Shown piece by piece: positions 1 through 56,300 of a DNA stretch of 64,000 nucleotides. This DNA is from a virus. The stretch lies in the UHGV virus genome UHGV-0248979; one strand, given 5' to 3'. Position numbers and translations under genes: made by a program. Under the pieces are notes generated by a model, which saw nothing but the letters and a program-made list of their open reading frames with translations, searched no databases and was not told the DNA's origin. Positions within the stretch are counted from its first letter, which is position 1, and every line of letters begins with the position of its first letter.

Positions 1-35
1 CGCTTAAAAAAAAGAAAAAAAAATAAGAAAGTTAA

Positions 36-57
36 CCTACCTCCGAAGGGAGGTAGG
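36..57. terminator. GC-rich hairpin (CCTACCTCC-GAAG-GGAGGTAGG) flanked by A-run upstream and T-run downstream; terminator-like
   Basis: Perfect 9-bp stem with GAAG tetraloop; poly-A at 6-27 and T-rich at 61-72. Confidence 0.5.
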
Positions 58-66
58 TGCTTTTAT

Positions 67-4292: not shown

Positions 4293-4600
4293 CAGATTTT
4301 GTCCTTTTCGAGTTCAGTTAAAATTTCAAACAGGTCTGCGTTGGACTGCAGTACGATTTCACTGCCTTCTGCTACAACAGTAATTAAAGGCTTCTTACCA
4401 CGTAGCAAGAACTCCCAACGCATTGTTCTTACGTGGCTGTCGAGTAACTGTTTTAATTTGTGGTTAACTTCAACTTCCAATTTGCCCAGTAACTGTGGTG
4501 TAATGCTTTCACCTGAGTTTTTGTTATAAAGTGTACGCACTAAAGAACGTAAAGAATAGCCAATGCACTGCGAAATTGCCCAACCCGAATAGTTTTCCAT
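4292..4600 (-). CDS. hypothetical protein (102 aa)
   Basis: ORF in operon-like array. Confidence 0.5.
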   Translation of the reverse strand: MENYSGWAISQCIGYSLRSLVRTLYNKNSGESITPQLLGKLEVEVNHKLKQLLDSHVRTMRWEFLLRGKKPLITVVAEGSEIVLQSNADLFEILTELEKDKI

Positions 4601-4601
4601 G

Positions 4602-5147
4602 TTAATCCTTCAAAATGTCTTTAAGTTTTAGTTTTGTATAGAACGGAGAACTACTTAGTTCTTCTGTCCAACTTATACGTCCGTTCTGTAGAACCCGGTC
4701 GAAGATTAGGCCGTTCATCTTTATAATTCTGGCCAATTGATAAAAGAGCGTCGCGAGATGTAGACGTCGCTCCATTTGTGCGCGAGCGGTACAACTTCGT
4801 ACCGCTTTGATAGCAAGTACCGCTTCTGGCATCAACGTAACCGCGATTGACTCAGAATGTTCGTTTTTCCATTTCTTAATGGCTAGTAGTCGGTGTAGTG
4901 ATTTTTCAAGGGGACGTAAATCCCCGTTATTCATCACGTAAACTAGAGCAGCAATATCCCACAAGGCGTTACCCACCGCTTTAGCAACAAACAACCCGTC
5001 GTGTGATGTCGTGGATTCACAGACTTTGCCAATACTTCCATAAACACGTGCAGTCCATGCGTCTGTCTGTTCGCCGGGTTTTATACCCGCGTTATCCAGA
5101 AAGTGTTTAAACGCATTAACGTGATCAGTTAACTGTATTTGTTTCAT
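4602..5147 (-). CDS. hypothetical protein (181 aa)
   Basis: ORF. Confidence 0.5.
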   Translation of the reverse strand: MKQIQLTDHVNAFKHFLDNAGIKPGEQTDAWTARVYGSIGKVCESTTSHDGLFVAKAVGNALWDIAALVYVMNNGDLRPLEKSLHRLLAIKKWKNEHSESIAVTLMPEAVLAIKAVRSCTARAQMERRLHLATLFYQLARIIKMNGLIFDRVLQNGRISWTEELSSSPFYTKLKLKDILKD

Positions 5148-6055: not shown

Positions 6056-6087
6056 GATAATTCTCCTTTAGGGTAAAAAATGAAAAT

Positions 6088-6113
6088 ACCCTACTCCTGT
6101 CTAGGAGTAGGGT
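6088..6113 (-). terminator. intergenic hairpin CCCTACTCC...GGAGTAGGG (hairpin family member)
   Basis: 9-bp stem; A-rich on plus strand upstream = U-run for minus transcript. Confidence 0.45.
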
Positions 6114-6118
6114 AGGTA

Positions 6119-12425: not shown

Positions 12426-12469
12426 GATGACTCCTTAGGTCGGGTAGGGTTTACCCTACCCGATCCTAT

Positions 12470-15135: not shown

Positions 15136-15147
15136 AAAAGTAAAGCT

Positions 15148-15173
15148 ACCCCTAGACCACACGGTCTAGGGGT
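15148..15173. terminator. bidirectional hairpin terminator (CCCCTAGACC...GGTCTAGGGG)
   Basis: 10-bp stem between convergent genes; A-run upstream, T-run downstream. Confidence 0.6.
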
Positions 15174-15180
15174 AAACTAT

Positions 15181-25428: not shown

Positions 25429-25436
25429 AAAAGATT

Positions 25437-25460
25437 ACCCTACTCCTTCGGGAGTAGGGT
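25437..25460. terminator. bidirectional terminator hairpin CCCTACTCC-TTCG-GGAGTAGGG
   Basis: 9-bp stem with TTCG tetraloop; A-run upstream, T-run downstream. Confidence 0.65.
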
Positions 25461-25470
25461 AGCTTTTATT

Positions 25471-26049: not shown

Positions 26050-26073
26050 ACCCTACTCCCGGAGGAGTAGGGG
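26050..26073 (-). terminator. hairpin CCCTACTCC-CGGA-GGAGTAGGG (hairpin family member)
   Basis: 9-bp stem, between paralogous genes. Confidence 0.45.
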
Positions 26074-41576: not shown

Positions 41577-41945
41577 GATTTACTCGCTAATCTCAATAAA
41601 GGGAAGTCTATTATTATGGATTGTAAAAGAGGTATAAGGAAGTCACTACGTTCCTCTGGGAAGAGTATGTCGGTATACTACGTATACCTCCGCTATTTAT
41701 ATCCGTATACATAATGCCCCCTACCCCCTACCGGTATCCCGAGTAGCAGAATAAAGGGACAGACTGTAAAATTTTAGTACCTGTTATCGGAAGGTACTAA
41801 ATGGAGTGTAGTCTTTAAGCCGTTTGTGCAGCTCATTGAGACTTTCTTTTTTTAGTAGACATGATCTGTCTCCCCAAATGGTTTAATCAATCCGTTTCGA
41901 ATGAAACGTGTCCGTAGGGGCTGAACTGGCACTTCAGTCCCTATT

Positions 41946-41970
41946 CACTTAAGTAATATATATCTGAAAT
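41946..41970 (+). promoter_or_regulatory. conserved 25-nt AT-rich element CACTTAAGTAATATATATCTGAAAT (copy 2), candidate promoter for the virion gene block
   Basis: 26 nt upstream of the ATG at 41996; contains TATATAT -10-like core. Confidence 0.4.
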
Positions 41971-41995
41971 CAATTCCGATCTAAGGAACGTCCCG

Positions 41996-42961
41996 ATGGA
42001 GAAATCCAGTGTTGATTTTTTCTCAATTGGTATCGTCGCGGAAGACAAACCCCGTGGTACAGATCGGGTAAAAGTGATACCAATTGAAACTAATTTTGCT
42101 AACCCTACCGTGGTGCAATCTGTTTCTTCAGCAACTGAAAAGACACATGAAACATCTGGTGCAACAGATAACCTAACCATTAAGACGGGTAACACGATAA
42201 CAGCAAAGTGGTGGAAGTTTAACTCCAACCGAATTAATTCCCCTGACGTTAAACGAGAAGATTACGTTATCTTGTTACGTTTGGGGAAAACCGATATTTA
42301 TTTTTGGATTGATCTGAACTTCGCTAACGTTAAGCGATTAGAGGATGCGGTTTACGCGTGGTCTGCTGACCCTGAAAACCAGATGGCGGATGACCTGTCC
42401 AATGCGTATGTGTTGAATATCTCGACGATTGACAAACATATCACGCTAAGAACAAGTATGGTGAACGGTGAGAAAGCGGCGTGGTTATTTCAGTTTGATA
42501 ATGCAAATGGCACGTGGCAGTGTGTTGACCACAAAGGGAATAAGTATTACATTAACTCGGTGGAAGACGATTTAGGTTTTGAGAATGCGATGCTCTCAAA
42601 AGTGAACATCAACAAAGAAGATGCGTTCATTTATTCAAAGCGTTCTATTAACCTGGAAACGAAAACGATTAATGAAAAATGCGAAGTTCGCAATACGGAA
42701 GCAGCGAAATCCGTTACGTTTAAAACACAAACCTGGTTAACGGAAGCAGGGAGTTCGACAACATTTAAAACGCCGAACTTTAAACAAGAAGGGAATGAAG
42801 CGATGTTCACCGGTAATCTGGAAATCGCTAAGAACTTCAAATACGGTGGTACGGGCAAAGGCGTCGGTGTCTTTACGGTTAAAGATGCGGTTATTTCTGG
42901 CATTACCTTTAGCGTTCACATTCACCAAGGTAAACATGGCCCGACATCACCTCCACAGTAA
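41996..42961 (+). CDS. hypothetical protein, likely virion/baseplate-associated (321 aa)
   Basis: First gene of plus-strand block, SD AAGGA; no motif recognised. Confidence 0.5.
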   Translation: MEKSSVDFFSIGIVAEDKPRGTDRVKVIPIETNFANPTVVQSVSSATEKTHETSGATDNLTIKTGNTITAKWWKFNSNRINSPDVKREDYVILLRLGKTDIYFWIDLNFANVKRLEDAVYAWSADPENQMADDLSNAYVLNISTIDKHITLRTSMVNGEKAAWLFQFDNANGTWQCVDHKGNKYYINSVEDDLGFENAMLSKVNINKEDAFIYSKRSINLETKTINEKCEVRNTEAAKSVTFKTQTWLTEAGSSTTFKTPNFKQEGNEAMFTGNLEIAKNFKYGGTGKGVGVFTVKDAVISGITFSVHIHQGKHGPTSPPQ

Positions 42962-43167
42962 TTCCCCTTTTTCTTACGTTGTTTTTATATATTGTGACCT
43001 GACGTTGGTAAAACTTTTTATCAACACTTTTCTTAAACCCATCGTTTAGTTAAGCAGGCCACTTTTTTCGCGCACTCTACTCCTCCCTACGGGGAGGAGC
43101 TATCTTATGCTTCGGTTGTAACACACGTCGGTCTTAGACCACTAACCTTTTGAAATGGAGAGCTGTT

Positions 43168-43377
43168 ATGTCTATTAAAGAGTTCTCTTCTGCTGAGCAT
43201 ATTCCAGAAGAGTTTAAGAAAATCGGTAACGTTAGCGCTTTCGGCGATACCGTTGATCATGTAACTGGTAAACTGGCTGCTGAAGCCGAAAAAATTGGCG
43301 GCGACGCATTCAAAGTTATCGGTATTTCCGGCAACAACAAACTGCACGGTAACGCGATTGTCTACAAAAAAGACTAA
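43168..43377 (+). CDS. DUF1471 (YdgH/BhsA/McbA-like) domain small protein lacking a signal peptide (69 aa)
   Basis: Pattern EF...G.VS...DTVDHVTGKLAAEAEKIGGDAFKVIGISGNNKLHGNAIVYKK matches the BhsA-family fold signature; SD GGAG. Confidence 0.6.
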   Translation: MSIKEFSSAEHIPEEFKKIGNVSAFGDTVDHVTGKLAAEAEKIGGDAFKVIGISGNNKLHGNAIVYKKD

Positions 43378-43396
43378 GCGAAAAAAAAACGTGCTA

Positions 43397-43421
43397 CTCC
43401 TACCCTCTAAGAGGGTAGGAG
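43397..43421. terminator. bidirectional terminator hairpin CTCCTACCCTC-TAA-GAGGGTAGGAG
   Basis: 11-bp stem; A9 upstream, T7 downstream; between convergent genes. Confidence 0.7.
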
Positions 43422-43427
43422 GTTACT

Positions 43428-44690
43428 TTATTTTTTTCGTGCTCTAAAGCGATGCATTTCTAAATACACTTTTTCCCAGGGACCGAATGGACCAACGATT
43501 GCTTGAGCATCGTTAATCTTCTTCTGATTATACCACCGGGCTTCACGAAAGACGTAGTTTTGACTGTCGAATTCGGTGGTGTTAAATACCCACTCACCTT
43601 CCTCCCACGTAGGCCAATAACCTACCGTCTTTCCAAATCGATTATTTAAGTACCCTAATGGTTTTTCAGAATCAGGATCGGTGGGGTCCTTGAGATAACA
43701 ACGTCCCCAAACTGCGTTATGCGAAACACCCACAACTTCTTCTTCTAAATACGGATTATCTACCGTAAAGATAAAAGAGGATTCGTGCAGTAAAAGCGCT
43801 TTCAGTGTTTCAGGGTTACGAATACGTTGAACGTTGGTAGGCGATGATAAATCCCCCACACCGATGCTATCCCAGTCGTAATAACGTCGGGTCTCCAGAA
43901 CGGTCCGTGCAAGATCAAAATTCGGTAAAGAAATCATGATCGCACGGTCAGAGAAATAACCGTCCGGTGGCAACCAACGTAGCAATCCGCCTATGACGAA
44001 ACCCACGGTTTTCCCCGTAATAGACTCAGGCAGCGATATCATTAACGTGGAGTAATAGTCGCGTGTAGTGTCGAGCTTGTTTAGCGTAAGGTTGGCGATT
44101 GGATAGGTTTTAACATTCCCTAGCTGACCAAAAACCATACAGCCAATATCTGGCGTACATGCTCTCCGTACGATTTTACCGGCCCCAGGCAATCGCACAC
44201 CTACGGTATCCGTCTGGTGTGGTACCCATTGACCGTTAATGTTGTACAGCACACTATTACGGTATTTGTCTTTCCACTTGTCCTCACAAACGACGACAAC
44301 GTCATCAGCATCGTCTAAGCTGAAATCTTGACTGTGATGGTACCCTGGTGGACACAGATATGTTTCGACAGGTACATCGGCATTAATTGATTGGTAATGT
44401 GCCCAACTGAATTCCAGTTTCGGCAATCCGGTCTTTAGAGTGGGAATGACGTTTCCGGCTTTTTCGTTTAACCAATCTTGTAAAGTGTCTGTTCGGTTTT
44501 GTAGTTCGGCAAGATGGTATTGACTGACTAACGTATAGTCTTTACCAAGTGCACTTAAACCGATCTCAAAGGTGTGGTAGTCTGAACACAACGTAGTTAA
44601 AGGTTGCGTGACATCGATGGCTCCCCAGGTACGGGACTCTCGAGAGAAGCCAAAAGCGCTGTCGGGTCGCACTTGATAAGCAGTAGTCAC
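43428..44690 (-). CDS. hypothetical protein (420 aa)
   Basis: Long minus ORF divergent from tail fiber genes. Confidence 0.55.
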   Translation of the reverse strand: MTTAYQVRPDSAFGFSRESRTWGAIDVTQPLTTLCSDYHTFEIGLSALGKDYTLVSQYHLAELQNRTDTLQDWLNEKAGNVIPTLKTGLPKLEFSWAHYQSINADVPVETYLCPPGYHHSQDFSLDDADDVVVVCEDKWKDKYRNSVLYNINGQWVPHQTDTVGVRLPGAGKIVRRACTPDIGCMVFGQLGNVKTYPIANLTLNKLDTTRDYYSTLMISLPESITGKTVGFVIGGLLRWLPPDGYFSDRAIMISLPNFDLARTVLETRRYYDWDSIGVGDLSSPTNVQRIRNPETLKALLLHESSFIFTVDNPYLEEEVVGVSHNAVWGRCYLKDPTDPDSEKPLGYLNNRFGKTVGYWPTWEEGEWVFNTTEFDSQNYVFREARWYNQKKINDAQAIVGPFGPWEKVYLEMHRFRARKK

Positions 44691-44759
44691 AGCTCTTTTT
44701 CCTCTATAGATTCAAGTCATAGTATGAACTTCGACGCCCACGGACTATAGGAGTAGATA

Positions 44760-47700
44760 ATGGCTGTCGTCTTAGACCCACACTTCAAAAAACCGGGGAA
44801 TAAAATAACCGGTGAAGCGGTCGCCGTCATTGGTACGAAATACCGAATGTTGGTACCTGCCCACGCCCCTTTTTTCACCACATCCCTGGTGGTCAAGAGC
44901 GGCGGCAAAATACTGACCTTAGGCGACGATTACGTTATTACACACCCGTACGAGACTGGTATGTTGCGCACAGCCTATCTCATTCACGGGATGATTTGGA
45001 TTGTTAATGACAAATACAAATCGAACTTTACTGTAGATTACCATGCCGTTGGTTGTGGTGAAGCAACCCAAGAGCAGATTACCGCAGAGCGCGAGCTTAA
45101 TAAAGGTAAATACCCCTCCGCGTGTCAGTGGGACACCGTCATCGGAGACGTTTACTTTCCACCGGTCGATATCCAGTTCGATTGGGAGAATTGGAAAGGT
45201 GAACTGGAGCTAATGCAGGCCATTGCTGGGGTAGGCGATTCGTTAGGGGAAGTCGTGAGTCGTCTTAACCCAATCGCACGCAATACACTGGATTTGGAAT
45301 ATCGTGCTAATAGCAAGGTTATCACTTCCGAGCAGTATGCTGCGTACGATAATAAAGGCGGTTTCACCTACAACACAGCTCGCCACCGTTATAGCCTGAG
45401 TTATAAAGCGACAACCTTTAACAACTATTCCCTGTCGGTGAAACACAGAATTCCTGCTATTCTGCCGGACATGACAAAGTTGAATCCGAACGAGCAGATC
45501 GATTGGATGCTCTGTTATGCCAACGGTGGTGCAAGCATTCTACGGTTGCAGCTAAAACAGCGCAAAATCTCACTGGTCTTAACTGTCGCTATTGGAAGCG
45601 GTTCATCAAACTACGATTATACTTTAATCAACGGTTTAACTGACGATGAGTTAAAAAACGATATCGATTTTAGTGTAACCCGACAACCCGGAAACGGCGT
45701 TTACGTAATCGTAGTAAAAACAAATAAACAGACCATGGATTATACGTTCAACGTCGATACGCCACCTGATGAGTTCTCGGCAGGGTATTCGAAAACGGAT
45801 GTAGCCAAATGGTTGAAGTCTAAAACGAACATTAACCTGAACTGGTATGCGGCTGAAAACGATAATGTTCAAATTCGTTCTTTACCCGGTGCGCCGGAGC
45901 CTGACGTTGATAACGATGTTTACCAGTTAATAGTTAAGTATCATCAGTTGGTTGAGCAGCTGTATCGTAATGCGCCTGCGCACGAACACGTTACACGTAA
46001 GGACAACCCACACACAGATACGTGGGGTCCGATCCGTGCGTTAGAGTTGAACGGTATTGCGTCGGATGCAGCATTAGCTTACGGAAAAACGAAGCCGCAG
46101 TTAACGGATTATGTTAATGCTAAGTATCCAACACAAGCGACGCTGACAGCACAAAAGAAACTATTGCGCACGTCAGCTACGAAAACGGCTAACGGAACTA
46201 TTGGAACGCTGCCCGGTTTTACTTCGTTCACGACGGAAGTTGACCCGGTGTCAATGTCGAAATACGTGAGTCCTCGTTTTAGCGAAAGCTACGTTAGTAA
46301 TGGTCACAGGTATCACGGTGCGCTTCGTTACACAGGAACGAAGAGTGGATTCGCCACTTCTTTTAATGCGGTACCTGCTAACCTGCAAGATATTGACTTT
46401 ATTGTTACCGGACGTAAAACAGCGTCTGGTAATGAAGCTGTCGGTACGGTTAGCCTACGTTTCTATCAGAAACCTGGTACTAACTCTGGAAAATTTATCC
46501 AGCTTACAGGTGAAATTTCTGCGGGTAAAGTCGGCGTTAAGTTGGAACTGAACGGTTTTTCGAATCCCACACCGGAAGTTCAGTATCTTTCCCAAGCTCC
46601 TAATCCAGCAATACCGGATGGGGATTTTACGCTGCGTTTTCAACTGAAACGCACAGGGAACGTGTTTGATGTCGTTATTACCATAAACGGCAAGACATAC
46701 AGTGCACGTGTTAACTTCACTAACATGGACGCTGCACTAGAAGCATTGGAGAATAGCCACCACTTTAAATCATTGATCAGTAATGTTGCTGACAATGTCA
46801 CTATTAGCTCGGGGAATAAAGGTAACACGGTTACCATTAAGAAAGCGCCCGACGTCGTTGACGGGACCCGTTTAGGTGCCCAGTTTGTCGTTGACCCGAA
46901 ATCCATTAAGTTTATTGGACAAGGTTCAACCGAGGTTAATGCGGGGAATAACCCTGTAACGTTTCAAGCAGGTACTAACCAACTTATATTGTATCCTGAT
47001 GATCGTGGGTTACAGTGGCGTGGTAAGAAACTCTTAGACCCCACTACCGTGGCTCCGTATCTGCCAGGCAATACCGCGGGCGGTACGGGATTATTCTACG
47101 GTACATCTACAACCACGGTAGAACTTACCGGTAGCGGGATAAAAGCATCGCCGTTCGTAGCGACTTTTATTCTCCCTACCGCGACTGATACAACAGCCCT
47201 GGCAGCTTGGCAGTTGACCGATGAGTTTGGTACCGCTGAAAACCTTGCAGCAACGCCAGCACTGATTGAAAAACTCGATGCGGAGTTCACCGGTAAATTA
47301 GTTGCGGTTAAATCGTACATTAACGACATGCAACTTACCAGCTCGGTCACTATCGACAAAATTACCTTTGGTTTAGGTAACGTTGCGAATACACCCGATG
47401 TCAATTTACCGATTTCTACAGCACAACGTGCGGAGTTAGATAAATACTCGCCTAAAGTTCACCAACACCCGTTTACCGCTTTTGGTACTGGGAACGCAAC
47501 CACAGCGAAACGTGGTCTGATTAAATTTGGTCTGGATGTGGATGATGCGACTTTAGCACTCGATGGGAGTGTGGTAATGGCGCAGACTTCCCAGATTGAA
47601 AAATTGGAAAATGCTGTCGGTGGCGTTGACTCGGGTGCTCGCGTTGACATTATTCGTTTCGGCAAGTCTGGTGACGACTTAATTAACGTTACGGTTAAAG

Positions 47701-49082
47701 ACAAAATTCTGGCTATGCTCCCCGCTTCAACGTACTTTGTTGGTGGTGAGACGTATGACGTACCGTTAATGTCGGTTAACGTCACTGAACGTTTCCCGAA
47801 TCCGAAAACGTTGATCTACGCAGGAATTTTTGTTGATATTGTTGACAACAAAGCGAAGTATGTTATCCACGACAGCTACAATCAGGCTGAAACGGATACC
47901 ATGACGCGCGTGGGAAGACTCGTTGTCAATGAGCTTTCCGAAGTGGACGTAGTGGAATTGCGTAACGTGACACGATTAGGCGAATTCCACGAGCTGAAAG
48001 ACCACATCGCTAATGACAACGCACACATTCAACGTTCTGCTTCGCGTGCAGTATTGGGGTTAAGTGATTTAACAGTAGGTGCACCTTGCTGGGCTTCTGG
48101 ACTCCAGGCAGTAGTGCGTGGTGAAGCAGATTGGCGTTATGTTGTTCGTGGACAGTATAAAGCCTTAGACGGGGTGAAATACGACCAGATCGCATCAAAG
48201 TGGATTTTCGATGCGAAAGGGGTAAGTGACAACGTTCACGGGTTTATTCACAACTTATTCCCGACTTTCAAAAACGCAGGAATGCGGGTAAGTTGGGAAA
48301 CAGAAAGCAACGCAAAAACCGGAACAGTGTTAGAAACTGTTTTAGGTTGTTGGAAGAACACCGACGGCGAGTTTATGCGGTTGTCATTACTTATCACTCG
48401 CGGTTATCGTTTAACTGACAGTAACGGTGAATATTGTTACGCAGGGTTCGGTTTGAACTTCGGTAGCGGGAAATCGGTAGTGGTAGGTTTCACACCAACG
48501 AAGCGTGTTACGCCTGCACCGTGGAGTTCATTACGACCTGACGTAACGTTTACCCACACCCGTGGTGCAAACAACGCAATAACGTTTAATGCATCGCTGA
48601 CTTTAGCTGGCACTGTGTATACTATCGTGGTGTTTTTATCCGCGACAGATAAATACGTAAGCTGTACGGCGGCAGGGGGAACTACGCAGAAAATCCCATT
48701 AGCCGACCGTTTAACCGGGTTCAATATCGAACCTATCGTTAATGATCCGTATACCCCTATTTACTACGGTTTAGGGGGACTTTATGAGGATGAGGTTCGT
48801 GCCAACATCCGCTCTACAGCAGACAGCGCAACTGCGAACAAAGTCTACGGTACGTTGTTGGACTATGTTAGCAACTATTCCTCATTAAATCGAGTACGCG
48901 TCATGGAATTGTCCGGTGTCAGCTCAGACCCCGAAACGCTTAATGCGTTAGTGGCAACTGAATTTAATAACAACCTGGCAGATTACGCTGCGTTACCGAT
49001 ACCTCCTTATCTTAACAAGGAGCGCGTAATGTCGTTTATCGACACCGACAATAAAGTGCAGGCGGTAATCATTCGCGATTAA
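44760..49082 (+). CDS. tail fiber-like / receptor-binding protein 1 (1440 aa)
   Basis: Giant Thr/Gly/Ser/Asn/Val-rich ORF, SD AGGAG; N-terminal domain shared with the next three genes. Confidence 0.55.
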   Translation: MAVVLDPHFKKPGNKITGEAVAVIGTKYRMLVPAHAPFFTTSLVVKSGGKILTLGDDYVITHPYETGMLRTAYLIHGMIWIVNDKYKSNFTVDYHAVGCGEATQEQITAERELNKGKYPSACQWDTVIGDVYFPPVDIQFDWENWKGELELMQAIAGVGDSLGEVVSRLNPIARNTLDLEYRANSKVITSEQYAAYDNKGGFTYNTARHRYSLSYKATTFNNYSLSVKHRIPAILPDMTKLNPNEQIDWMLCYANGGASILRLQLKQRKISLVLTVAIGSGSSNYDYTLINGLTDDELKNDIDFSVTRQPGNGVYVIVVKTNKQTMDYTFNVDTPPDEFSAGYSKTDVAKWLKSKTNINLNWYAAENDNVQIRSLPGAPEPDVDNDVYQLIVKYHQLVEQLYRNAPAHEHVTRKDNPHTDTWGPIRALELNGIASDAALAYGKTKPQLTDYVNAKYPTQATLTAQKKLLRTSATKTANGTIGTLPGFTSFTTEVDPVSMSKYVSPRFSESYVSNGHRYHGALRYTGTKSGFATSFNAVPANLQDIDFIVTGRKTASGNEAVGTVSLRFYQKPGTNSGKFIQLTGEISAGKVGVKLELNGFSNPTPEVQYLSQAPNPAIPDGDFTLRFQLKRTGNVFDVVITINGKTYSARVNFTNMDAALEALENSHHFKSLISNVADNVTISSGNKGNTVTIKKAPDVVDGTRLGAQFVVDPKSIKFIGQGSTEVNAGNNPVTFQAGTNQLILYPDDRGLQWRGKKLLDPTTVAPYLPGNTAGGTGLFYGTSTTTVELTGSGIKASPFVATFILPTATDTTALAAWQLTDEFGTAENLAATPALIEKLDAEFTGKLVAVKSYINDMQLTSSVTIDKITFGLGNVANTPDVNLPISTAQRAELDKYSPKVHQHPFTAFGTGNATTAKRGLIKFGLDVDDATLALDGSVVMAQTSQIEKLENAVGGVDSGARVDIIRFGKSGDDLINVTVKDKILAMLPASTYFVGGETYDVPLMSVNVTERFPNPKTLIYAGIFVDIVDNKAKYVIHDSYNQAETDTMTRVGRLVVNELSEVDVVELRNVTRLGEFHELKDHIANDNAHIQRSASRAVLGLSDLTVGAPCWASGLQAVVRGEADWRYVVRGQYKALDGVKYDQIASKWIFDAKGVSDNVHGFIHNLFPTFKNAGMRVSWETESNAKTGTVLETVLGCWKNTDGEFMRLSLLITRGYRLTDSNGEYCYAGFGLNFGSGKSVVVGFTPTKRVTPAPWSSLRPDVTFTHTRGANNAITFNASLTLAGTVYTIVVFLSATDKYVSCTAAGGTTQKIPLADRLTGFNIEPIVNDPYTPIYYGLGGLYEDEVRANIRSTADSATANKVYGTLLDYVSNYSSLNRVRVMELSGVSSDPETLNALVATEFNNNLADYAALPIPPYLNKERVMSFIDTDNKVQAVIIRD

Positions 49083-49095
49083 GGAGAATTTTTTG

Positions 49096-52000
49096 ATGAA
49101 AGCGTATCCTTACGATCCTCGGGGGACGAAAACCGAGAATCACTTCTTAGAGGAGCGTATCATCGGGTCAGAAAACAACAACGATCGGGTGGTGATTTTA
49201 GACCATCGCCCGTTCTTTGAAGATTTAGTCGTCAGACAACCAGGTTCAACCACCCCACTGAGTCGTGGGGTGGACTACGAACTGCAATATCAGCTGACGG
49301 AACTGGATGACTCGGTAGCAGCCAACGTGTATTGTGGGGTACACCTTATCAACCCTTCCATCAAAGGCATCGTAACCTTTGAAGGACAAATGCTCGGCGG
49401 TACGTTCTACGACCCGTTTGTTGATATTCTCGATGAGCTGGTGAAATATTTGAATAACCCAGTCAGCGCTGACTGGTTGTTATTAGAAGGCAGACCGTCG
49501 TTATACCCGGCTACGCCTGCGGCAACGTCTTGGGCGGATTTGCTAAACAAAAAATATTTAGCGTCGGCAGTCCACGATGTTGAATTGAAAACCGATGACG
49601 CTAACCAGTTAATTAAAGATAAATTAGCCGAAGTTAAAGCGTTAGTCGCCGCGCTGGGTAAAGAAATCGAGACATTTAACTACCCGGCACACATCGCGGA
49701 AACCAACCCGCACCAAACCACTTCTGCACAGATTAACGCACATCCTGTTAACTTGAAAACACCCGACACCTTTATGGCGTACGGGTTAAAGTTGAAAGCA
49801 TTGACGGATGAGCTGAAAGCGTTTCGTTTACCACAGTCAGTTATTGACACGTATATCTCCCACTGGATTTCTTCAGAAGTACGGGGTGTGTTTAACTGTA
49901 CGGTGTCAGGAAACCGTGCACAGTTCCGCTCAAAAAACGGTGAGTCAGAAATCATTTTTGCGAATGATGGCTTTACGTTAAAATCCAACGGTTCTGTAGT
50001 GTTAGCGGTAGGGCATCTGGAAGGAACGGGTGCAGGACGTTACATTAACTGGCGTGCTGGTAAAAACATCCTACGTATCGAGTCAACAGGCGATGCTTTA
50101 GGGATGAACAAACTCACCCTAAACGGTAACCCGTTACTGACCACCACAGCATTGATGGAATACCAACAAGATCCTGATGCTGGCGGGAGCGGTGGCGGTG
50201 ACCCCGACGACTCAAAGGTGTACATCGAAGGCCGTAATGGGATTAGCTTCACCGGTAAAGGCTCTCGGACCGATCCTATCGTGGGTACTATCGACCCGAC
50301 GAAAGCGACAACCACTGAAAAAGGTGTTGTTAAGCTTAAAACTGGTAAAGGTACAGAAATCGTTGGGGTTGCAGCAACTCCGGCTTCGTTAGCGCCATAT
50401 GCGACCGACCTATCGGGGTATGTGGCTAAAACGACCATGATTAACGGTAAGCCAATGAATGACGGCTCCAGGACAATCACGAAAGCTGACCTGGGGTTAG
50501 GGCAAGCGGATAATACCGCAGATCTTGACAAACCGTTGTCAACCAAGTTAACTGAGGCGGTTAGCGGTCTAGCAGATGTGGGCCATCATCACGATTGGTC
50601 GGAGTTAGGTATTTATAAAGCTTCTCAATCTGTTTACGGTATTGGTCGTTATGCAACTAACCAGAACGGTTTGGTTGAAAACCGTGCAGTGGTACCGAAC
50701 ATCCTAAAAGAGCTTTCGGCACGTTTAAGTGTGGTCGCTGCGGCAATTGCAAATGCGAAAGAAGGAACAGTCACGGATTTCGCTGCTGTAAAAGGCGCAG
50801 ACTGGCGATTTAATAGCCAGGGTACGGCAATCTCCGTTCAGGATTTGAAATATTTCTATTTGCTGGACGGCACGAAAGGTGACAGTACCGTTACCGGTGC
50901 GATTGACCTGCAAACCACTCCGATGTTTAACTGGTTCTCACCGAACAACCAACTTGAGCTGACTTGGCCTACGGGTAAGGTGAGTAAAGGTACCGGGATT
51001 AGTTGGGATGGAATTGTTGATCCCCCAACAATGGGGTTTCAGTCAGTTCCGGTAGGTAAAAGCGCCACCCAGATGGGCGTTCAGTCCGTTGTATCGGTAC
51101 TGGCTAAAACGCGCGTCAAAGCTCGTCAGAAAAGGCTGTTTGTTTATGCCGCTGGCGGTGGGACAATAACCGTTTATGTAAATGGTGTTGTAGGCGCTAC
51201 TGGTGCGTCGCCATTGTTAATGAACTATGGAACGTCTCCAGATGTTGAAAACTACACAATTGCTGTTAAAGCAGAGTGTAGTGACACGGCTAAATCTGCA
51301 GCGGTACAGTTCGAAGTTTACGATGGTGACTACCCCGTTTATTTCAGTGGTCCTGAAACGCGTGTAGAGCTTCTCCAGGAGTTTGTCACAACGCATGTAG
51401 GTATTCGTCATTATTTGTACGTTAACATGCTCACAGGCTCTCTGTATTCGCGTGCTGAACCAGTTCAAGGATTTGAGGTCGATCCAGAACGCGGATATAT
51501 CGGTTATGTTGATATCGTTCCTGGTCAGTCTTACGCGAATAAAACCGTGGGATTTGAAACCACGTTTGATTTCGGGAAAAGTGCGGAAGTTAGCGAGCAT
51601 AATAGTATTCGTAAGGCACACGGTCTCAACGCTGCGGACTGGTCACTGACGGATAACCCACGGTTGCCGTTATTAAACCGTGCTATTGCCGAACCAAGAG
51701 CGTGTATCTTTAGGAAACCGTTAGCAACCGCTACAGGGGATGTTTTCCATCTTGTCAGTCGTGGTCTTTATACTTACGCACACAACCAAAACGTGAAGTC
51801 GAGTCTTCAATACGTTGTGATACCTGAAGGTGCTACGCCGTATTGTTGGTTTACACCATTTAACCCGAAAGAAAACAACGCACCGACATTCGAAGGCTCG
51901 TTTGCGTTCGATGTTGACGATGTTGGTGGAACGCAAGCCCTTGCTGCTGCGCCGGATTTGGTTCTATGCACGTCAACGCAAGGTAGCAGCGTTAAACGTC

Positions 52001-53277
52001 GCTATCTGCGCATTGACCTAACTACCAAAACCTGTAAGTTGGGGATTGGTTCCCGTTCAGATTCTGCTGTTACGGATATTCCGTTAGTGATGGAGGAGTC
52101 TGGGGAAACGGCAGTGGCCGCAACGTTTAAGGATGTGTTGTTCAACGGTGAGGAAACCAACGCGGCGACGCTCGACTTGATAGGTTGGGGTGCCAGCCGA
52201 GATAAAATTTCTGCAAACCATGCACCTCGTGGCATGATTCGCTATCGTTACAACGTAAACAGTCGGGTATTACGTTTAGCACTGACGTTCTCACAGTTCG
52301 GAACGACAACAGTTAAACATCGACAGCTGGAGATTCAATTCCCGTTCGATTTAGTGGATTATTTCACTGGCGACGGTGTGGGATTGTCGTTTAAAGAACT
52401 GTCTGCGAAATGCCGTGTAACGATTAGTCACGCGCTGATTGATCCGGCTACGAGTAACGTCGACATTGATAAGTACCATTACTTACGTTCGTTGTTCGAA
52501 TCGTATCTGGATTCGTCCGTTGGGTATTTGGCTGATACCAAAGACGTTGATTTTAGTCAGACTGTGATTGACCCCGCGACTTATGAGATTAGTCAGAAAT
52601 ACCGCGTTACAGAAAGCATCGCGCTGCCAACCGGCCAGGGAAGTGTTGCTGTTTCACATGACGGTCAGTTGCCTGCGCAGTTCTTTGACCGTAAGCTGTC
52701 TCGTGGTGCCTTGATGGCCAAGAAAGGTGAACTCAACGCTTCCTGGAATAATGAGTGGAGCACGACTAAAGCTGCTGCGAGTCGTTATCGCCATAAACTC
52801 ATTCTACGCTTTGCACAAGGTGCTGATAAACAGCAGTATCGCGTTGCAAAAGTGGCCGGGACGGTGAAGTCTAACTGGCCGGGTAAAGTGATTATCGGTG
52901 ATGCCGGGAAGGACCCGTATGTATCGGCTATTGATAGCGTATCTTTTGCGCTTTCGACCGCCTCTGATACAGGTAAAGCGATTACTCTTACGCCAAAGGA
53001 CTTACGTGTAGGTCAGGACATTTATATTGTCTTAGAACCGCCCGGCAATAATCCGGAAGGTTATGAACTTAACTTTACCTGTTCGTTAGATGTCACTGAC
53101 GAGAAAAGTGTCCGTCAAGATCAACTCAATGCACAGAGTTTCGAACTCCGTAGCGGCGAAAGTCAGTTCTTAATGGAGAAACGCAACCCGTACCACATCA
53201 CGAGTAAAGCGTGGAAGTGGATTCTGGCTGTACTGAAACGAGAACTTAACGGGAAGCAGTTAGGGGATCGTACTTAG
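49096..53277 (+). CDS. tail fiber-like / receptor-binding protein 2 (1393 aa)
   Basis: SD AAGGAG overlapping upstream stop; shared N-terminal motif PFFEDLVV...GVDYEL; contains HHHDW. Confidence 0.55.
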   Translation: MKAYPYDPRGTKTENHFLEERIIGSENNNDRVVILDHRPFFEDLVVRQPGSTTPLSRGVDYELQYQLTELDDSVAANVYCGVHLINPSIKGIVTFEGQMLGGTFYDPFVDILDELVKYLNNPVSADWLLLEGRPSLYPATPAATSWADLLNKKYLASAVHDVELKTDDANQLIKDKLAEVKALVAALGKEIETFNYPAHIAETNPHQTTSAQINAHPVNLKTPDTFMAYGLKLKALTDELKAFRLPQSVIDTYISHWISSEVRGVFNCTVSGNRAQFRSKNGESEIIFANDGFTLKSNGSVVLAVGHLEGTGAGRYINWRAGKNILRIESTGDALGMNKLTLNGNPLLTTTALMEYQQDPDAGGSGGGDPDDSKVYIEGRNGISFTGKGSRTDPIVGTIDPTKATTTEKGVVKLKTGKGTEIVGVAATPASLAPYATDLSGYVAKTTMINGKPMNDGSRTITKADLGLGQADNTADLDKPLSTKLTEAVSGLADVGHHHDWSELGIYKASQSVYGIGRYATNQNGLVENRAVVPNILKELSARLSVVAAAIANAKEGTVTDFAAVKGADWRFNSQGTAISVQDLKYFYLLDGTKGDSTVTGAIDLQTTPMFNWFSPNNQLELTWPTGKVSKGTGISWDGIVDPPTMGFQSVPVGKSATQMGVQSVVSVLAKTRVKARQKRLFVYAAGGGTITVYVNGVVGATGASPLLMNYGTSPDVENYTIAVKAECSDTAKSAAVQFEVYDGDYPVYFSGPETRVELLQEFVTTHVGIRHYLYVNMLTGSLYSRAEPVQGFEVDPERGYIGYVDIVPGQSYANKTVGFETTFDFGKSAEVSEHNSIRKAHGLNAADWSLTDNPRLPLLNRAIAEPRACIFRKPLATATGDVFHLVSRGLYTYAHNQNVKSSLQYVVIPEGATPYCWFTPFNPKENNAPTFEGSFAFDVDDVGGTQALAAAPDLVLCTSTQGSSVKRRYLRIDLTTKTCKLGIGSRSDSAVTDIPLVMEESGETAVAATFKDVLFNGEETNAATLDLIGWGASRDKISANHAPRGMIRYRYNVNSRVLRLALTFSQFGTTTVKHRQLEIQFPFDLVDYFTGDGVGLSFKELSAKCRVTISHALIDPATSNVDIDKYHYLRSLFESYLDSSVGYLADTKDVDFSQTVIDPATYEISQKYRVTESIALPTGQGSVAVSHDGQLPAQFFDRKLSRGALMAKKGELNASWNNEWSTTKAAASRYRHKLILRFAQGADKQQYRVAKVAGTVKSNWPGKVIIGDAGKDPYVSAIDSVSFALSTASDTGKAITLTPKDLRVGQDIYIVLEPPGNNPEGYELNFTCSLDVTDEKSVRQDQLNAQSFELRSGESQFLMEKRNPYHITSKAWKWILAVLKRELNGKQLGDRT

Positions 53278-53315
53278 GACAGACTGCCTGCGGGCAGTTG
53301 TGTGTCCGTAGGTAA

Positions 53316-53339
53316 CCCCTCCCTGTAATGGGGAGGGGT
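53316..53339 (+). terminator. hairpin CCCCTCCC...GGGAGGGG followed by T-run
   Basis: 8-bp stem then TATCCATTTTATTT. Confidence 0.55.
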
Positions 53340-53371
53340 ATCCATTTTATTTAAAAGTAGGAGTCTTTACG

Positions 53372-56300
53372 ATGCCGAGAGAAGACGCGGCGCAGTTTAA
53401 CGGTACGCTAAGCACAACGACGTACCCTAACCGATTTAACGTGGTCATTCCGCCTGAAGGACCTTTTTATCGTATCGGATTAAAACTCACAGTAGCCGAC
53501 GATACCGCGCCTAACGGACGTCGTACTCTGATTGAGGGGTTGGACTACTATTTAGGCTATTACTTTAAAGAACTCGCAGAAGCTGAACAAGATCAGATTT
53601 ATGGCGGGTTTATGTTGCTTACTGCAACAGAAATCGAATATGAGATTTTAGGGGTAGCACGGCAGTATCGTGTACCGCAATCTGAAATCGGGAAGTTCTT
53701 AGTTCGTACTGACCTGAAAGACCCGCGTAACGTGGACTGGTCGGAGTTAATGGCGTACGCGCCGGTTATTCAACCAATCGACCCCCCTGCTAACTTAGAA
53801 GAAGCTATTCTGAGGGACGAGGTCGTTAAAGCGTTGAACGATATCCGTAAGAAAATCGTTCAGCGTTCAACAGAGTTAGATGCGGCCTTCACCGAAGTCA
53901 CTAACCTGATTTACGAGAACGGTAAAAAGATTTTCGATGAAGAACTATACCAACACCACCTTAATCCTAACGCTCACCAGTATACGACCAATGACGTTGG
54001 GGCCCTTCCGGTTTTAGGACGTGCTGTTGACGCTACAAAAGCGTTTGGGTTGACAATTGACCAACTGGCTACGCTGATGGGTTCGGCGGGCATTGAGCAA
54101 TCAGACGTTGAACAGCTAATGGGTGAAGCCCTCGGTACCGTTTACGGTCGTTGGGGCACCACGAACGGTAACGAACTAACGTTTAAAACACCGGGTGGAC
54201 ACATCATCAGCATCCGTGGTGATAAGTGGTTAATTACCTCCCCGCAACCGTTAGTGATTAAAGCAGACCAAGACAACAACGAATCCGGTTTGGCGGTTGA
54301 GTTTAGTGCGGGACTGAATACGCTTTGGGTACACTCTGGGTCAGAACAGGATGTATTAGCACCGGTCTATAACTCTGTGTATCTCGTTACACCAGAAATG
54401 GTGAACATGTACCTGACGTCTGTAACGTTACTTGAAGCGAATGCCTATTTCAAACCGTCAGACACCGTAAAACCGTACGGTACAGCGAAGCAGTCTAACC
54501 CACTAACGTTGAACGCGAATATTCCCACAGCAACCGAGTCGGTTTATGGGGTGTTTTCGATTACGAATATCGCAACCTCTGTAGCGCTAGGCACTGCTAT
54601 TTCCCAAAAGGCTGTGACCGAGTTAAAAAACCGGTTGGACTTGTACGTTGACGACGACTACACGGTTAACGGTAAAGGGTTTGTTAAGACAGGCGACAAC
54701 ATGGTGTTAACCTTAACGAAGGCCGATTTCGGTATCGATAAGATGAATAACACCGCACCCATCGCTAAACCGGTAACAAAAGCGTTAGCGAACGTGCTGA
54801 AAAATAAAAGTTTGAAGGTACACACGCACACTACCGCTGATTTGGATAATGTCCCGATTGGTAGCGCAACAGTGGACGGTATCTTACAGCTGTGGGATGC
54901 GATTGATACCACGAATGATAAAGCCGTCACATCACGCCAAGGGTGGCTGTTCGCAAAAGAGATTAAGAAGGTCTCTGATAAACTGAATACCCTCTTGCCC
55001 GCATGGACAACGGCCGGGAGCAAATATACCAACAATTCGATATTGCCGATCTTGTCGATGGGTAATTACGAAGGTTATGGTAAAAACATGGATGCGCTCC
55101 AGATGGTTATAGGGGTACAACAAGGTAAGCTTTATGCTTTAATTAGCTCTAAATCCGCCCTTCCGGGAACTGAGGGTATTTATTACGCTGTTGCTGGGTT
55201 AAAAAACGACAAAAGTCTCGGTGAAATTTACAAAACAACTTTCCGTTATAAGCCGAAAGGGTTAGAGACGAATTATCCGGGGGTGGAACTAAAAGAAATT
55301 ACCGTTACTGGTACCGAAGCATTTATAGCGAAGGGCAGCGACGATAATTATTATTTAGTTAAACTGAACGGTTCAATGGATTACACCAAACATACCGATG
55401 TCAGGTTGGTAACTTTCTCAGAATTTGTTTCAGAAACAACATGGGAATTTGTGCCGAATATGTTCATGGATCGTGTGGTCATAGCCGATAACGGCGTCTA
55501 TGTTTTGCGTACGATGCTAATGGCCGATCTGAAAAACAATAGTCTGGTGGACTACATTAAGGATACTCCGCAACCTATGTTCCGTGTTGGGTTATTGCGA
55601 CTTAATAAAACCGATCGGTTTGAACAGGTTGATTTAAGCTCTACACGAAAAATCGGTAAGTGTGCCGATTTGGTTGAACCTGGCGCGTTCGATGTAGATA
55701 ATCCGAATACGAAGCGTCTTGCCTACTTCACTGCGGAAGGCAAAGCGTTGTGGACAGTGAATTTACAATTAACTAGAGGGGTGTCAAGATGGATAACGCC
55801 CGTTGTTAAGGACGGTCACTTGTTAACCGTCGGCGTGTCTGGCGTTTGTCTTGGTTTTTCTTCAACGAAAGGTACCACATTCGGGCCATGGAATGGTGCT
55901 TATCGTCTCGACCTATTAACCGGGGAGGTTGGGTTAGAGACAACTAACATCTTCCCAATCAAAATCGATACTACAGGTTGCTACTTAAAAGACGGAACAA
56001 AAATAGAGCTGAAATGGAAATGGGCTACTCGAAGTTCTGGCTATATGGCCGACAATAGAATCTGTGTCGGTGATATGGTTTATTCTTGCTGCTGTTCGAC
56101 AGAAAAACAACTTGCACCATCTCTCCATTACCAGAAACTCCCAGAAGGAGTTAGTTATCTGGACTATGTTAAGTTGAGTGTGGGGTATGAGGGGCAATCT
56201 ACGTTTGAAAATCGGATAAATCCTGTGGTGGGTTCGGTGTGGAAACCGTCTATGACCTTCCCATTGTTCTTCCCAGGAACAAACAAAGTATGGCTTAAAC

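What the first reader, a model, noticed from the sequence alone, without database searches (positions are those of the whole stretch)
43080..43421. Isolated DUF1471 (BhsA/YdgH-like) gene bracketed by hairpins next to the tail genes: likely host-derived moron lacking its signal peptide
The 69-aa product matches the enterobacterial BhsA/YdgH/McbA stress-protein fold signature (GGDAFKVIGISGNNKLHGNAIVYKK) but starts directly with the domain, without the signal peptide those periplasmic proteins normally carry. The gene has its own upstream hairpin and a strong bidirectional terminator downstream, the hallmark of an independently expressed moron. It also points to an enterobacterial host.
Basis: partly seen in the sequence, partly recalled or inferred. 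Interest (0 to 1): 0.45.

Follow-up and report, generated by a model that had tools for sequence, protein, structure and literature searches.

The report
Signal-less BhsA-like gene in jumbo phage
A small gene in the tail region of a giant phage encodes a copy of a bacterial periplasmic stress-protein domain that has lost its export signal; it is an old gene shared by a whole group of Salmonella/Erwinia jumbo phages, not a recent pick-up, and its counterpart in phage SPN3US has been detected in purified virions.

Summary
A 69-aa ORF (43168-43377, +) matches Pfam PF07338 (DUF1471/YdgH_BhsA-like) above the curated cut-off. Its AlphaFold model matches solved DUF1471 structures. An in-frame stop ten codons upstream rules out a signal peptide. 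Both flanking hairpins are real.

The "isolated host-derived moron" reading is only partly right. The gene matches PHROG 8068 over its full length. It sits in the same slot (central spike, DUF1471, convergent gp171-like tail gene, giant tail proteins) in 60 jumbo-phage records; the eleven inspected fall in five ICTV genera and an unplaced Seoulvirus/Machinavirus set. All infect Enterobacterales, and all inspected copies lack a signal peptide. dN/dS is 0.03-0.28 and GC equals that of the neighbours, so the acquisition is old and the gene is inherited vertically.

The SPN3US orthologue gp172 was reported by mass spectrometry as the smallest protein in purified virions. An invariant TATG, the phiKZ late-promoter core, lies upstream of the gene in ten phages.

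My best reading is a late-expressed, low-copy virion accessory protein, probably tail-associated, domesticated from a host BhsA-type protein. Biochemical function is unknown.

This is a new member of a known, uncharacterised phage family. Interest is modest.

The parts
41996..42961 (+). Central baseplate spike gene (SPN3US gp173 / phiKZ gp164 homologue). Context gene immediately upstream. Its C-terminus carries an HxH motif (VHIHQGKHG).
   Evidence: PHROG 3216 'baseplate assembly protein', E 9e-114. tblastn finds 290 jumbo-phage records. C-termini compared.
43058..43070 (+). Conserved element GCCACTTTTTTCG of unknown role, upstream of the hairpin.
   Evidence: G..ACTTTTTT is invariant and GCCAC nearly invariant in 10 aligned phages (A1). 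It is unique in the window and not enriched over shuffles.
43080..43099 (+). Upstream hairpin (8-bp GC-rich stem, loop TACG). In relatives it is followed by a T-run and acts as the terminator of the spike gene. The T-run is missing in this window.
   Evidence: -18.1 kcal/mol, z -3.6. A hairpin with a different stem sequence sits at the same position in most of the aligned relatives but not in EC001 (judged by eye, not formally counted).
43106..43109 (+). TATG: putative late (non-virion phage RNA polymerase) promoter core and transcription start, 59 nt before the ATG.
   Evidence: Invariant columns T148 A149 T150 G151 in 10 phages whose intergenic regions average 53% identity. The phiKZ late-promoter consensus is T-3 A T G+1 (PMC7598289). 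Positive control: the invariant palindrome at 44716-44729. The assignment is inferred, not mapped.
43157..43160 (+). Shine-Dalgarno GGAG, 7 nt before the start codon.
   Evidence: Sequence. GGAG or GAG is conserved in the alignment.
43168..43377 (+). 69-aa signal-less DUF1471 (BhsA-like) protein. It is the orthologue of SPN3US gp172 and a member of PHROG 8068.
   Evidence: dN/dS 0.03-0.28.
43379..43439 (.). Bidirectional intrinsic terminator. The stem is at 43397-43421, flanked by A9 (43381-43389) and T7 (43432-43438). It serves the convergent DUF1471 (+) and gp171-like (-) genes.
   Evidence: Across 9 phages 99% of cells are paired and 7 of 11 pairs show compensatory changes; 0 of 500 shuffles reach this.
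43428..44690 (-). Convergent 420-aa gene, homologue of SPN3US gp171, an essential tail-associated virion protein. Context.
   Evidence: PHROG 3337, E 3e-144. gp171 is tail-associated and absent from tailless particles (PMC5105663).
44716..44729 (.). Palindrome GTCATAGTATGAAC carrying back-to-back TATG cores between the divergent gp171-like and giant tail-protein genes. Context; positive control for the promoter motif.
   Evidence: GTCATA and TATGA are invariant in 9 phages; only the central base varies (A in Phobos) (A5). The motif is unique in the window.

Best explanation
The gene is the orthologue, in a new SPN3US-like jumbo phage, of SPN3US gp172 (PHROG 8068).

Origin: an ancestor of the Seoulvirus, Erskinevirus, Machinavirus, Wellingtonvirus and Derbicusvirus lineage captured a host BhsA-type DUF1471 gene. 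It landed between the central-spike gene and the convergent terminator, and the copy lost its Sec signal peptide. It has been inherited vertically under purifying selection since.

Expression: it is transcribed as its own short unit. Transcription starts at a phiKZ-type late TATG promoter read by the phage's non-virion RNA polymerase and ends at the bidirectional terminator.

Fate of the product: the 7-kDa protein folds in the cytoplasm as a bare DUF1471 domain. It is incorporated at low copy number into the virion, most likely into the tail or baseplate, whose genes surround it. The virion would then carry it to the envelope or periplasm of the next host cell, the compartment where DUF1471 domains normally act. 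There it would work as an envelope-directed accessory, either binding an envelope or polysaccharide component or interfering with envelope stress functions.

Shown here or in the literature: domain and fold; absence of a signal peptide; synteny; purifying selection; conserved TATG and terminator; MS detection of gp172 in SPN3US virions.

Inferred: late timing, tail location, delivery to the periplasm, and the biochemical activity.
For: - Domain and fold.
- No signal peptide is possible. Every bacterial homologue inspected carries one.
- Full-length match to PHROG 8068, E 4.5e-32.
- 60 phage records carry the gene, all about 200-250 kb jumbo phages of Enterobacterales.
- The slot is identical in SPAsTU, phiEaH2, EC001, ChrisDB, SNUABM_4, Asesino, Huxley, SNUABM_29, SPN3US, Phobos and Derbicus. 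Wellington keeps the slot but has extra small ORFs on either side. Two metagenomic or assembly contigs show the same arrangement.
- dN/dS is 0.03-0.28 in unsaturated pairs. Gene GC 42.4% and GC3 42.9% match the neighbours.
- SPN3US gp172 in CsCl-purified virions: 7 kDa, 4 unique peptides, 6 spectra, 81% coverage, called the 'smallest SPN3US virion protein' (PMC5694885).
- Neighbours gp171, gp173 and gp168-170 are tail proteins, lost in a tailless mutant (PMC5105663 Table S4).
- TATG is invariant upstream in 10 phages. It matches the phiKZ late-promoter core, in which all four bases are required (PMC7598289). The same motif is invariant as a palindrome between the two neighbouring structural genes. 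TATG is depleted genome-wide: 281 observed against 441 expected.
- The terminator is conserved with compensatory changes.
- Wellington carries a second signal-less DUF1471 paralogue in tandem.
Against: - Virion association rests on one data set with 6 spectra. gp172 was not listed in four other SPN3US particle preparations (PMC5105663 Table S4). It was also absent from 47(am1) particles, which the authors say may simply reflect loss of the low-molecular-weight gel region.
- No head-versus-tail assignment exists.
- TATG is only 4 nt. The chance of at least one in a 68-nt gap is about 0.13 for a single sequence. No transcription start has been mapped in this clade.
- Delivery to the periplasm and any envelope target are pure inference.
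- The protein is near-neutral to slightly acidic, unlike the basic polysaccharide-binding face described for SrfN (PMC4092069).
- The phage clade is recovered in an NJ tree but with only 37% bootstrap support. A single acquisition therefore rests mainly on synteny.
Confidence: 0.5

Rival explanations
1. The protein is a non-structural cytoplasmic phage protein. It could be a decoy or inhibitor that binds a host partner of BhsA-type proteins or their precursors, or an assembly chaperone for the spike or tail. On this view its detection in virions is carry-over of a small, abundant late protein.
For: Spectral counts are low, and gp172 is absent from several SPN3US particle preparations. No copy has a signal peptide, so the newly made protein stays in the cytoplasm. 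Conservation and purifying selection fit any function.
Against: 81% sequence coverage in CsCl-purified virions. The gene is embedded among tail and baseplate genes and carries the same conserved TATG motif as the structural genes. DUF1471 domains have no known cytoplasmic partner (PMC4092069).
Confidence: 0.3
2. One reading: a recently acquired, independently expressed host-derived moron that changes host phenotype (biofilm, stress resistance) in a lysogenic-conversion-like way.
For: The domain is of enterobacterial origin. The gene has its own terminator and an upstream hairpin. More distant phiKZ-like phages lack any gene in this slot, so it was added to the backbone at some point.
Against: The gene is present in the same slot in all inspected relatives across five ICTV genera, at 42-80% amino-acid identity. 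GC is fully ameliorated. No sigma-70-like promoter lies upstream. Without a signal peptide, an intracellularly expressed copy cannot reach the periplasm where BhsA-type proteins act. The SPN3US orthologue was detected in virions. From my own knowledge, not tested here: SPN3US-like phages are virulent.
Confidence: 0.07
3. The protein is a spike-tip protein that functionally replaces PAAR. In phiKZ the gene directly after the spike gene encodes a PAAR protein, and here the same slot holds the DUF1471 protein.
For: phiKZ gp163.1, immediately downstream of spike gp164, is a PAAR protein (PF05488, 28.7 bits). tblastn with phiKZ gp163.1 finds no PAAR homologue in the window. One bacterial locus has a DUF1471 gene two genes upstream of a PAAR gene.
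Against: The spike here, and in all DUF1471-bearing relatives, ends in an HxH...G..(S/T)xP motif. This resembles the self-contained apex of P2 gpV and phi92 gp138-type spikes (my recollection; not tested structurally). Outgroup phages with the same motif have no gene in the slot. phiKZ gp164, which does have a PAAR partner, lacks the motif. The DUF1471 alpha+beta fold is unrelated to the PAAR fold. A terminator hairpin and a separate promoter lie between the spike gene and this gene.
Confidence: 0.05

Closest known systems
Salmonella phage SPN3US gp172 (SPN3US_0172) and its orthologues: PHROG 8068, phiEaH2 gp094, Asesino gp192, Wellington gp190, Phobos gp174
   Same: Same length (67-73 aa). 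Same DUF1471 domain without a signal peptide. Same genomic slot between the spike gene and the gp171-like gene. Same conserved TATG upstream and the same bidirectional terminator. 45-80% amino-acid identity.
   Different: The window phage is a distinct lineage. Its best protein identity is 79.7% (STsAS/SPAsTU), and megablast finds no match for the locus. The T-run after the upstream hairpin is deleted here. Function is unknown for the whole family.
Enterobacterial BhsA/YcfR and other single-domain DUF1471 proteins (YbiJ, YahO, McbA, YhcN, SrfN; Pfam PF07338)
   Same: Same domain and the same alpha+beta fold. The conserved G..G.NK(L)HG.A..Y motif is retained. Identity to BhsA orthologues is 35-57% over the domain.
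   Different: The bacterial proteins are 78-91 aa with an N-terminal Sec signal peptide and act in the periplasm or envelope. The phage protein begins about 6 residues before the position of the cleavage site and has no hydrophobic leader. It scores below the NCBIfam BhsA equivalog cut-off, 46.8 against 90 bits. It is encoded in a phage tail-gene cluster.
phiKZ gp163.1 (PAAR protein encoded directly downstream of the central spike gene gp164)
   Same: A small gene occupying the same position, directly 3' of the homologous spike gene and before a convergent gene.
   Different: Unrelated fold and family: PF05488 against PF07338. The phiKZ spike lacks the C-terminal HxH motif that the spike in this window has.
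RcsF (outer-membrane lipoprotein sensor of the Rcs envelope-stress system)
   Same: The model superposes on RcsF (2Y1B) with query-normalised TM 0.84. The literature already notes that RcsF is the closest fold to DUF1471 (PMC4092069).
   Different: About 10% identity. The phage protein has no cysteines and no lipobox. This is a fold resemblance only.

Membership tests
DUF1471 / YdgH_BhsA-like (Pfam PF07338) | Profile match above the curated gathering score | tested here: met
   38.2 bits against 27, E 1.4e-9, profile positions 2-55 of 55.
DUF1471 / YdgH_BhsA-like (Pfam PF07338) | Mixed alpha+beta fold of SrfN, YahO and YdgH domains | tested here: met
   AF2 model pLDDT 85.4, with strand-strand-helix-strand-strand order. 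Top Foldseek hits in the PDB include 2M2J, 4EVU, 2MA8, 2JNA and 2NOC, prob 0.99-1.0, query-normalised TM 0.62-0.74.
DUF1471 / YdgH_BhsA-like (Pfam PF07338) | N-terminal signal sequence and periplasmic or envelope location (typical of most members, not part of the Pfam definition) | tested here: not met
   In-frame stop 10 codons upstream. No hydrophobic N-terminus: KD maximum 0.39 against about 2.0 in bacterial homologues. The phage protein aligns from about 6 residues before the cleavage site.
DUF1471 / YdgH_BhsA-like (Pfam PF07338) | Restriction to Enterobacterales | tested here: met
   All named bacterial hits are Enterobacterales. All 60 phage records are from phages of Erwinia, Salmonella, Escherichia, Cronobacter or Proteus. 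The host of the window phage itself is not known.
BhsA equivalog (NCBIfam NF047859) | Score at or above the curated equivalog cut-off (90 bits) over the full 85-aa precursor | tested here: not met
   46.8 bits, matching profile positions 30-85 only. It is BhsA-like, not BhsA.
PHROG 8068 / SPN3US gp172 orthologue group | Full-length profile match | tested here: met
   E 4.5e-32; protein residues 1-69 against profile positions 1-70 of 70.
PHROG 8068 / SPN3US gp172 orthologue group | Conserved synteny: spike, then this gene, then convergent gp171-like gene, then giant tail proteins | tested here: met
   Wellington keeps the slot with extra ORFs.
PHROG 8068 / SPN3US gp172 orthologue group | Presence of the product in virions | not testable with these tools
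   Reported only for SPN3US gp172 (PMC5694885). No proteome exists for the window phage.
Phage moron | Own promoter and terminator forming an autonomous transcription unit | tested here: inconclusive
   The terminator is strong and conserved. No sigma-70-like promoter lies upstream. A conserved TATG suggests a phage late promoter, but no transcription start has been mapped.
Phage moron | Patchy presence among otherwise collinear close relatives, or deviant base composition | tested here: not met
   Present in every inspected relative across five ICTV genera. GC and GC3 equal the neighbours. Absent only from distant phiKZ-like outgroups.
PAAR spike-tip proteins (PF05488) | PAAR profile match, partnered with an apex-less spike | tested here: not met
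   The protein gives no PAAR hit. The spike carries its own C-terminal HxH motif.

The most novel reading that the evidence does not exclude
A host periplasmic stress-protein domain has been domesticated as virion cargo. Loss of the Sec signal lets the protein be built into the tail or baseplate in the cytoplasm. The contracting tail, rather than the Sec machinery, then delivers it into the periplasm of the next host, where it manipulates the envelope (for example outer-membrane permeability or envelope-stress sensing) at the moment of infection. Tail-mediated delivery would thus replace a signal peptide for a captured host protein.
Probability: 0.2. Interest if true: 0.6.

Novelty: new member of a known kind. 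Interest (0 to 1): 0.3.

Why it matters
On its own the locus is one more orthologue of a small, uncharacterised, conserved jumbo-phage gene. Several GenBank records already label it 'putative BhsA' or 'DUF1471'.

The combination of facts has not been discussed in any paper I could find:
- the smallest reported SPN3US virion protein is a signal-less copy of a host periplasmic DUF1471 domain;
- it is fixed in the spike/tail module of a whole clade of Enterobacterales jumbo phages;
- it is preceded by a conserved phiKZ-type late-promoter core.

This gives a concrete, testable handle on two things. One is a function for DUF1471, which remains a domain of unknown function in bacteria. The other is the question of which accessory proteins giant-phage tails carry into the cell envelope.

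The conserved TATG motifs also provide candidate late promoters for a clade with no mapped transcription starts that I could find.

Tried and rejected
- Megablast of the locus against the phage collection gave no match. Relatives were found only at the protein level.
- Search for a cryptic upstream start or signal peptide: none possible.
- Sigma-70 promoter scan: nothing upstream of the gene, and counts were not above shuffles.
- Rfam scan of 42900-43500: only two sub-threshold hits on the terminator hairpin. No known RNA family.
- The conserved GCCACTTTTTTCG element is not a repeated genome-wide motif. Its role remains unexplained.
- The antisense 80-aa ORF (43105-43347) has no PHROG hit and is treated as a shadow ORF.
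- The PAAR-replacement idea was rejected because of the HxH spike C-terminus and the pattern in outgroups.
- Phylogeny of the 57-column domain recovers the phage clade but with 37% bootstrap support. It is too short to date or root the acquisition.
- dN/dS pairs involving EC001 were ignored because the ungapped codon registration is unreliable there.
- The exhaustive single-sequence search gave only 12 hits at E<=1e-3. A profile search was needed to reach the bacterial BhsA set.
- Literature: no paper links SPN3US or jumbo phages to DUF1471 or BhsA. The SPN3US infection-proteome paper (Weintraub 2019) is not held. A search for virion proteomes of other relatives was unproductive.
- The bacterial locus with DUF1471 next to PAAR: the adjacent 895-aa protein is not recognisably VgrG. 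I treat this as an anecdote.

Full report
**Observation.** The ORF runs from ATG 43168 to the stop at 43375-43377 on the + strand and encodes 69 aa. A GGAG lies 7 nt upstream of the start. The finding's span 43080-43421 is this ORF plus its two flanking hairpins.

The product matches Pfam PF07338 (YdgH/BhsA/McbA-like, DUF1471) at 38.2 bits against a gathering cut-off of 27. The best NCBIfam model is BhsA at 46.8 bits, well below the 90-bit equivalog cut-off. By sequence it hits the solved YahO structures 2MA4 and 2NOC.

An AlphaFold2 model built from a 45-sequence alignment has mean pLDDT 85.4. Its best Foldseek matches in the PDB are mainly DUF1471 structures: 2M2J, 4EVU, 2MA8, 2JNA and 2NOC, prob 0.99-1.0, query-normalised TM 0.62-0.74. 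The E-values are modest (1.7e-3 to 2.3e-2). RcsF also appears, the fold neighbour already noted in the literature (PMC4092069).

An in-frame TAG at 43135-43137 leaves room for at most six extra residues from TTG 43150. The N-terminus is hydrophilic. A signal peptide is therefore impossible.

The upstream hairpin (43080-43099) and the downstream hairpin (43397-43421, flanked by A9 and T7) both fold far better than shuffled controls.

One qualification applies. About 15-19 similar GC-rich hairpins, many sharing a CCTAC(T/C)CC core, are scattered through the window's intergenic regions. They are this genome's ordinary terminators.

**What the window is.** The neighbours are as follows.
- The central baseplate spike (PHROG 3216).
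- A convergent 420-aa protein (PHROG 3337).
- A 1440-aa virion protein (PHROG 7557).

tblastn places the region in the SPN3US-like jumbo phages, which are phiKZ-related and about 200-250 kb. No phage record matches the locus at the DNA level. The closest protein identities are about 72-80%. A metagenomic contig encodes a 99% identical protein in the same arrangement. The window therefore comes from an undescribed relative.

**The gene is not isolated.** The 69-aa protein matches PHROG 8068 over its full length (E 4.5e-32). It has tblastn homologues in 60 phage records, all from phages of Erwinia, Salmonella, Escherichia, Cronobacter or Proteus.

In every relative inspected the arrangement is the same: spike (+), DUF1471 gene (+), gp171-like gene (-), giant structural protein (+). 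The relatives are SPAsTU, phiEaH2, EC001, ChrisDB, pEa_SNUABM_4, Asesino, Huxley, pEa_SNUABM_29, SPN3US, Phobos and Derbicus, plus two further contigs. Wellington keeps the slot but has extra small ORFs on either side. These fall in five ICTV genera: Seoulvirus, Erskinevirus, Machinavirus, Wellingtonvirus and Derbicusvirus.

All inspected phage copies are 67-73 aa and start M(S)IKEF or MQQF with no leader. All bacterial homologues retrieved are 78-103 aa and have a typical signal peptide ending in A-x-A. The phage Met aligns about six residues before the bacterial cleavage site.

Several further results point to an old, vertically inherited gene.
- Pairwise dN/dS among unsaturated phage pairs is 0.03-0.28.
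- Gene GC (42.4%) and GC3 (42.9%) match the neighbouring genes and the window.
- The phage sequences form one group in an NJ tree, but bootstrap support is only 37% on 57 columns.
- Identity to the best bacterial proteins is 45-57% (BhsA-type proteins of Gibbsiella, Brenneria and Erwinia). That is no lower than between the most distant phage orthologues.

A single old acquisition is thus supported mainly by synteny and the shared loss of the signal peptide.

More distant phiKZ-like phages (Vibrio Yong XC32, Aeromonas AerS_266, Erwinia Mortimer, Salmonella SA002) have the spike gene followed directly by a convergent gene. So the DUF1471 gene was indeed an addition at the 3' end of the spike gene. 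It is moron-like in origin but ancient and fixed. Wellington additionally carries a second signal-less DUF1471 paralogue in tandem, with a long acidic tail.

**Expression signals.** I aligned the 206-280 nt spike-to-DUF1471 spacers of ten phages. Mean identity is 53%. A few conserved blocks stand out.
- GCCACTTTTTT. This is unique in the window and unexplained.
- A hairpin whose stem sequence differs between phages. In relatives it is followed by a T-run, making it the spike gene's terminator. The T-run is deleted in this window.
- An invariant TATG(C), 55-75 nt before the start codon.
- The Shine-Dalgarno sequence.

The late promoters of phiKZ, read by its non-virion RNA polymerase, are defined by exactly T-3 A T G+1, with all four bases required (PMC7598289).

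As a positive control I aligned the 70-nt spacer between the divergent gp171-like and giant tail-protein genes. It contains the palindrome GTCATAGTATGAAC, that is, TATG on both strands. GTCATA and TATGA are invariant in nine phages; only the central base varies, in Phobos. TATG is also depleted in the window, 281 observed against 441 expected. No sigma-70-like promoter lies upstream of the gene.

I therefore infer that the gene is a late, phage-polymerase-transcribed unit like its structural neighbours. This is an inference; no transcription start has been mapped.

The downstream terminator is conserved with compensatory changes in 7 of 11 stem pairs. It also ends the convergent gp171-like gene, whose stop codon lies in the T-tract.

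**Evidence from the literature.** SPN3US gp172 is the orthologue. [quoted passage not shown] The authors describe it as the smallest SPN3US virion protein, of low abundance and unknown function. It was not seen in 47(am1) particles, possibly because the low-molecular-weight gel region was not analysed (PMC5694885). It is not listed in four earlier particle preparations. In those, gp171, gp173 and gp168-170 behave as tail proteins: they are absent from a tailless mutant (PMC5105663 Table S4). No paper in the searchable library connects this protein with DUF1471 or BhsA.

**Interpretation.** The best-supported reading is a domesticated host domain. A BhsA-type periplasmic protein gene was captured by an ancestor of this clade, stripped of its signal peptide, placed under a late phage promoter in the tail module, and kept under purifying selection. 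Its product is a low-copy virion-associated protein.

Tail or baseplate location and re-delivery to the envelope or periplasm at the next infection are attractive, because they would explain why loss of the signal peptide was tolerated or favoured. They remain inferred.

The main rival is a cytoplasmic, non-structural role with adventitious carry-over into virions.

A PAAR-like spike-tip role was suggested by phiKZ, where a PAAR gene occupies the slot. It is disfavoured for two reasons. The spike here and in all DUF1471-bearing phages ends in an HxH-containing motif also present in outgroups with an empty slot. phiKZ gp164, which has a PAAR partner, lacks that motif.

**Verdict.** The gene is a new member of a known but uncharacterised phage family (PHROG 8068 / SPN3US gp172). 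Interest is modest at 0.3. The more novel reading is tail-mediated delivery of a captured periplasmic domain. The evidence does not exclude it, and I put it at about 0.2 probability.

Noticed in passing
window 44716-44729: Palindrome GTCATAGTATGAAC (TCATA-G-TATGA) in the 69-nt spacer between the divergent gp171-like (-) and 1440-aa (+) structural genes. GTCATA and TATGA are invariant in nine phages from several genera; only the central base varies. It looks like back-to-back phiKZ-type TATG late-promoter cores.
   Followed up: partly
whole window: The tetranucleotide TATG and its complement CATA are depleted: 281 observed against 441 expected under a first-order Markov model. This fits avoidance of spurious late-promoter cores.
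   Followed up: partly
window 35-58, 6087-6114, 12440-12463, 15147-15174, 25436-25461, 26051-26072, 43397-43421 and others: About 15-19 perfect GC-rich intergenic hairpins. Many share a CCTAC(T/C)CC / GGAGTAGG stem core and have A-runs and T-runs on either side. This is a family-like set of bidirectional terminators.
   Followed up: partly
window 43058-43070: GCCACTTTTTTCG upstream of the hairpin. Its core is invariant in ten phages although the spacer is otherwise only 53% identical. It is unique in the window. In some relatives it forms an A/T hairpin with a downstream A-run. Its function is unexplained.
   Followed up: partly
window 42900-42961 (spike C-terminus); L015 (phiKZ) 2956-4113: Spikes of SPN3US-like, Derbicus, Agrican-like and AerS_266 phages end in an HxH...G..(S/T)xP motif. 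phiKZ gp164 lacks it and is followed by a PAAR gene, gp163.1. This suggests two alternative spike-tip solutions within phiKZ-like phages.
   Followed up: partly
L008 (Erwinia phage Wellington) 1115-1273 and 1787-2347: In Wellington the slot holds extra genes. One is a 52-aa ORF before the DUF1471 gene. The other is a second signal-less DUF1471 paralogue after it (gp189, 186 aa) with a roughly 120-aa acidic, low-complexity C-terminal tail.
   Followed up: partly
L020 (GCA_000784735.1, JSYG01000008.1) 4001-5058: In a bacterial genome, a signal-peptide-bearing DUF1471 protein (P0012) lies two genes upstream of a 139-aa PAAR protein and downstream of an 895-aa protein with no clear family. This may be a chance adjacency or a T6SS-related cassette.
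   Followed up: partly
window 43105-43347 (- strand): An 80-aa antisense ORF overlaps the DUF1471 gene and is longer than the real ORF. It has no PHROG hit and is taken to be a shadow ORF. Naive longest-ORF gene calling would pick it.
   Followed up: yes
window 44760-58558: Three consecutive giant + strand ORFs (1440, 1394 and 1728 aa). By position and size they correspond to SPN3US tail paralogue family C (gp170, gp169, gp168). Only the first was checked (PHROG 7557) (PMC5694885).
   Followed up: no
window 41577-41995: An unusually long non-coding region of about 420 nt between the divergent 245-aa gene (-) and the spike gene (+). No ORF of 60 aa or more and no nearby TATG. Not examined further.
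   Followed up: no
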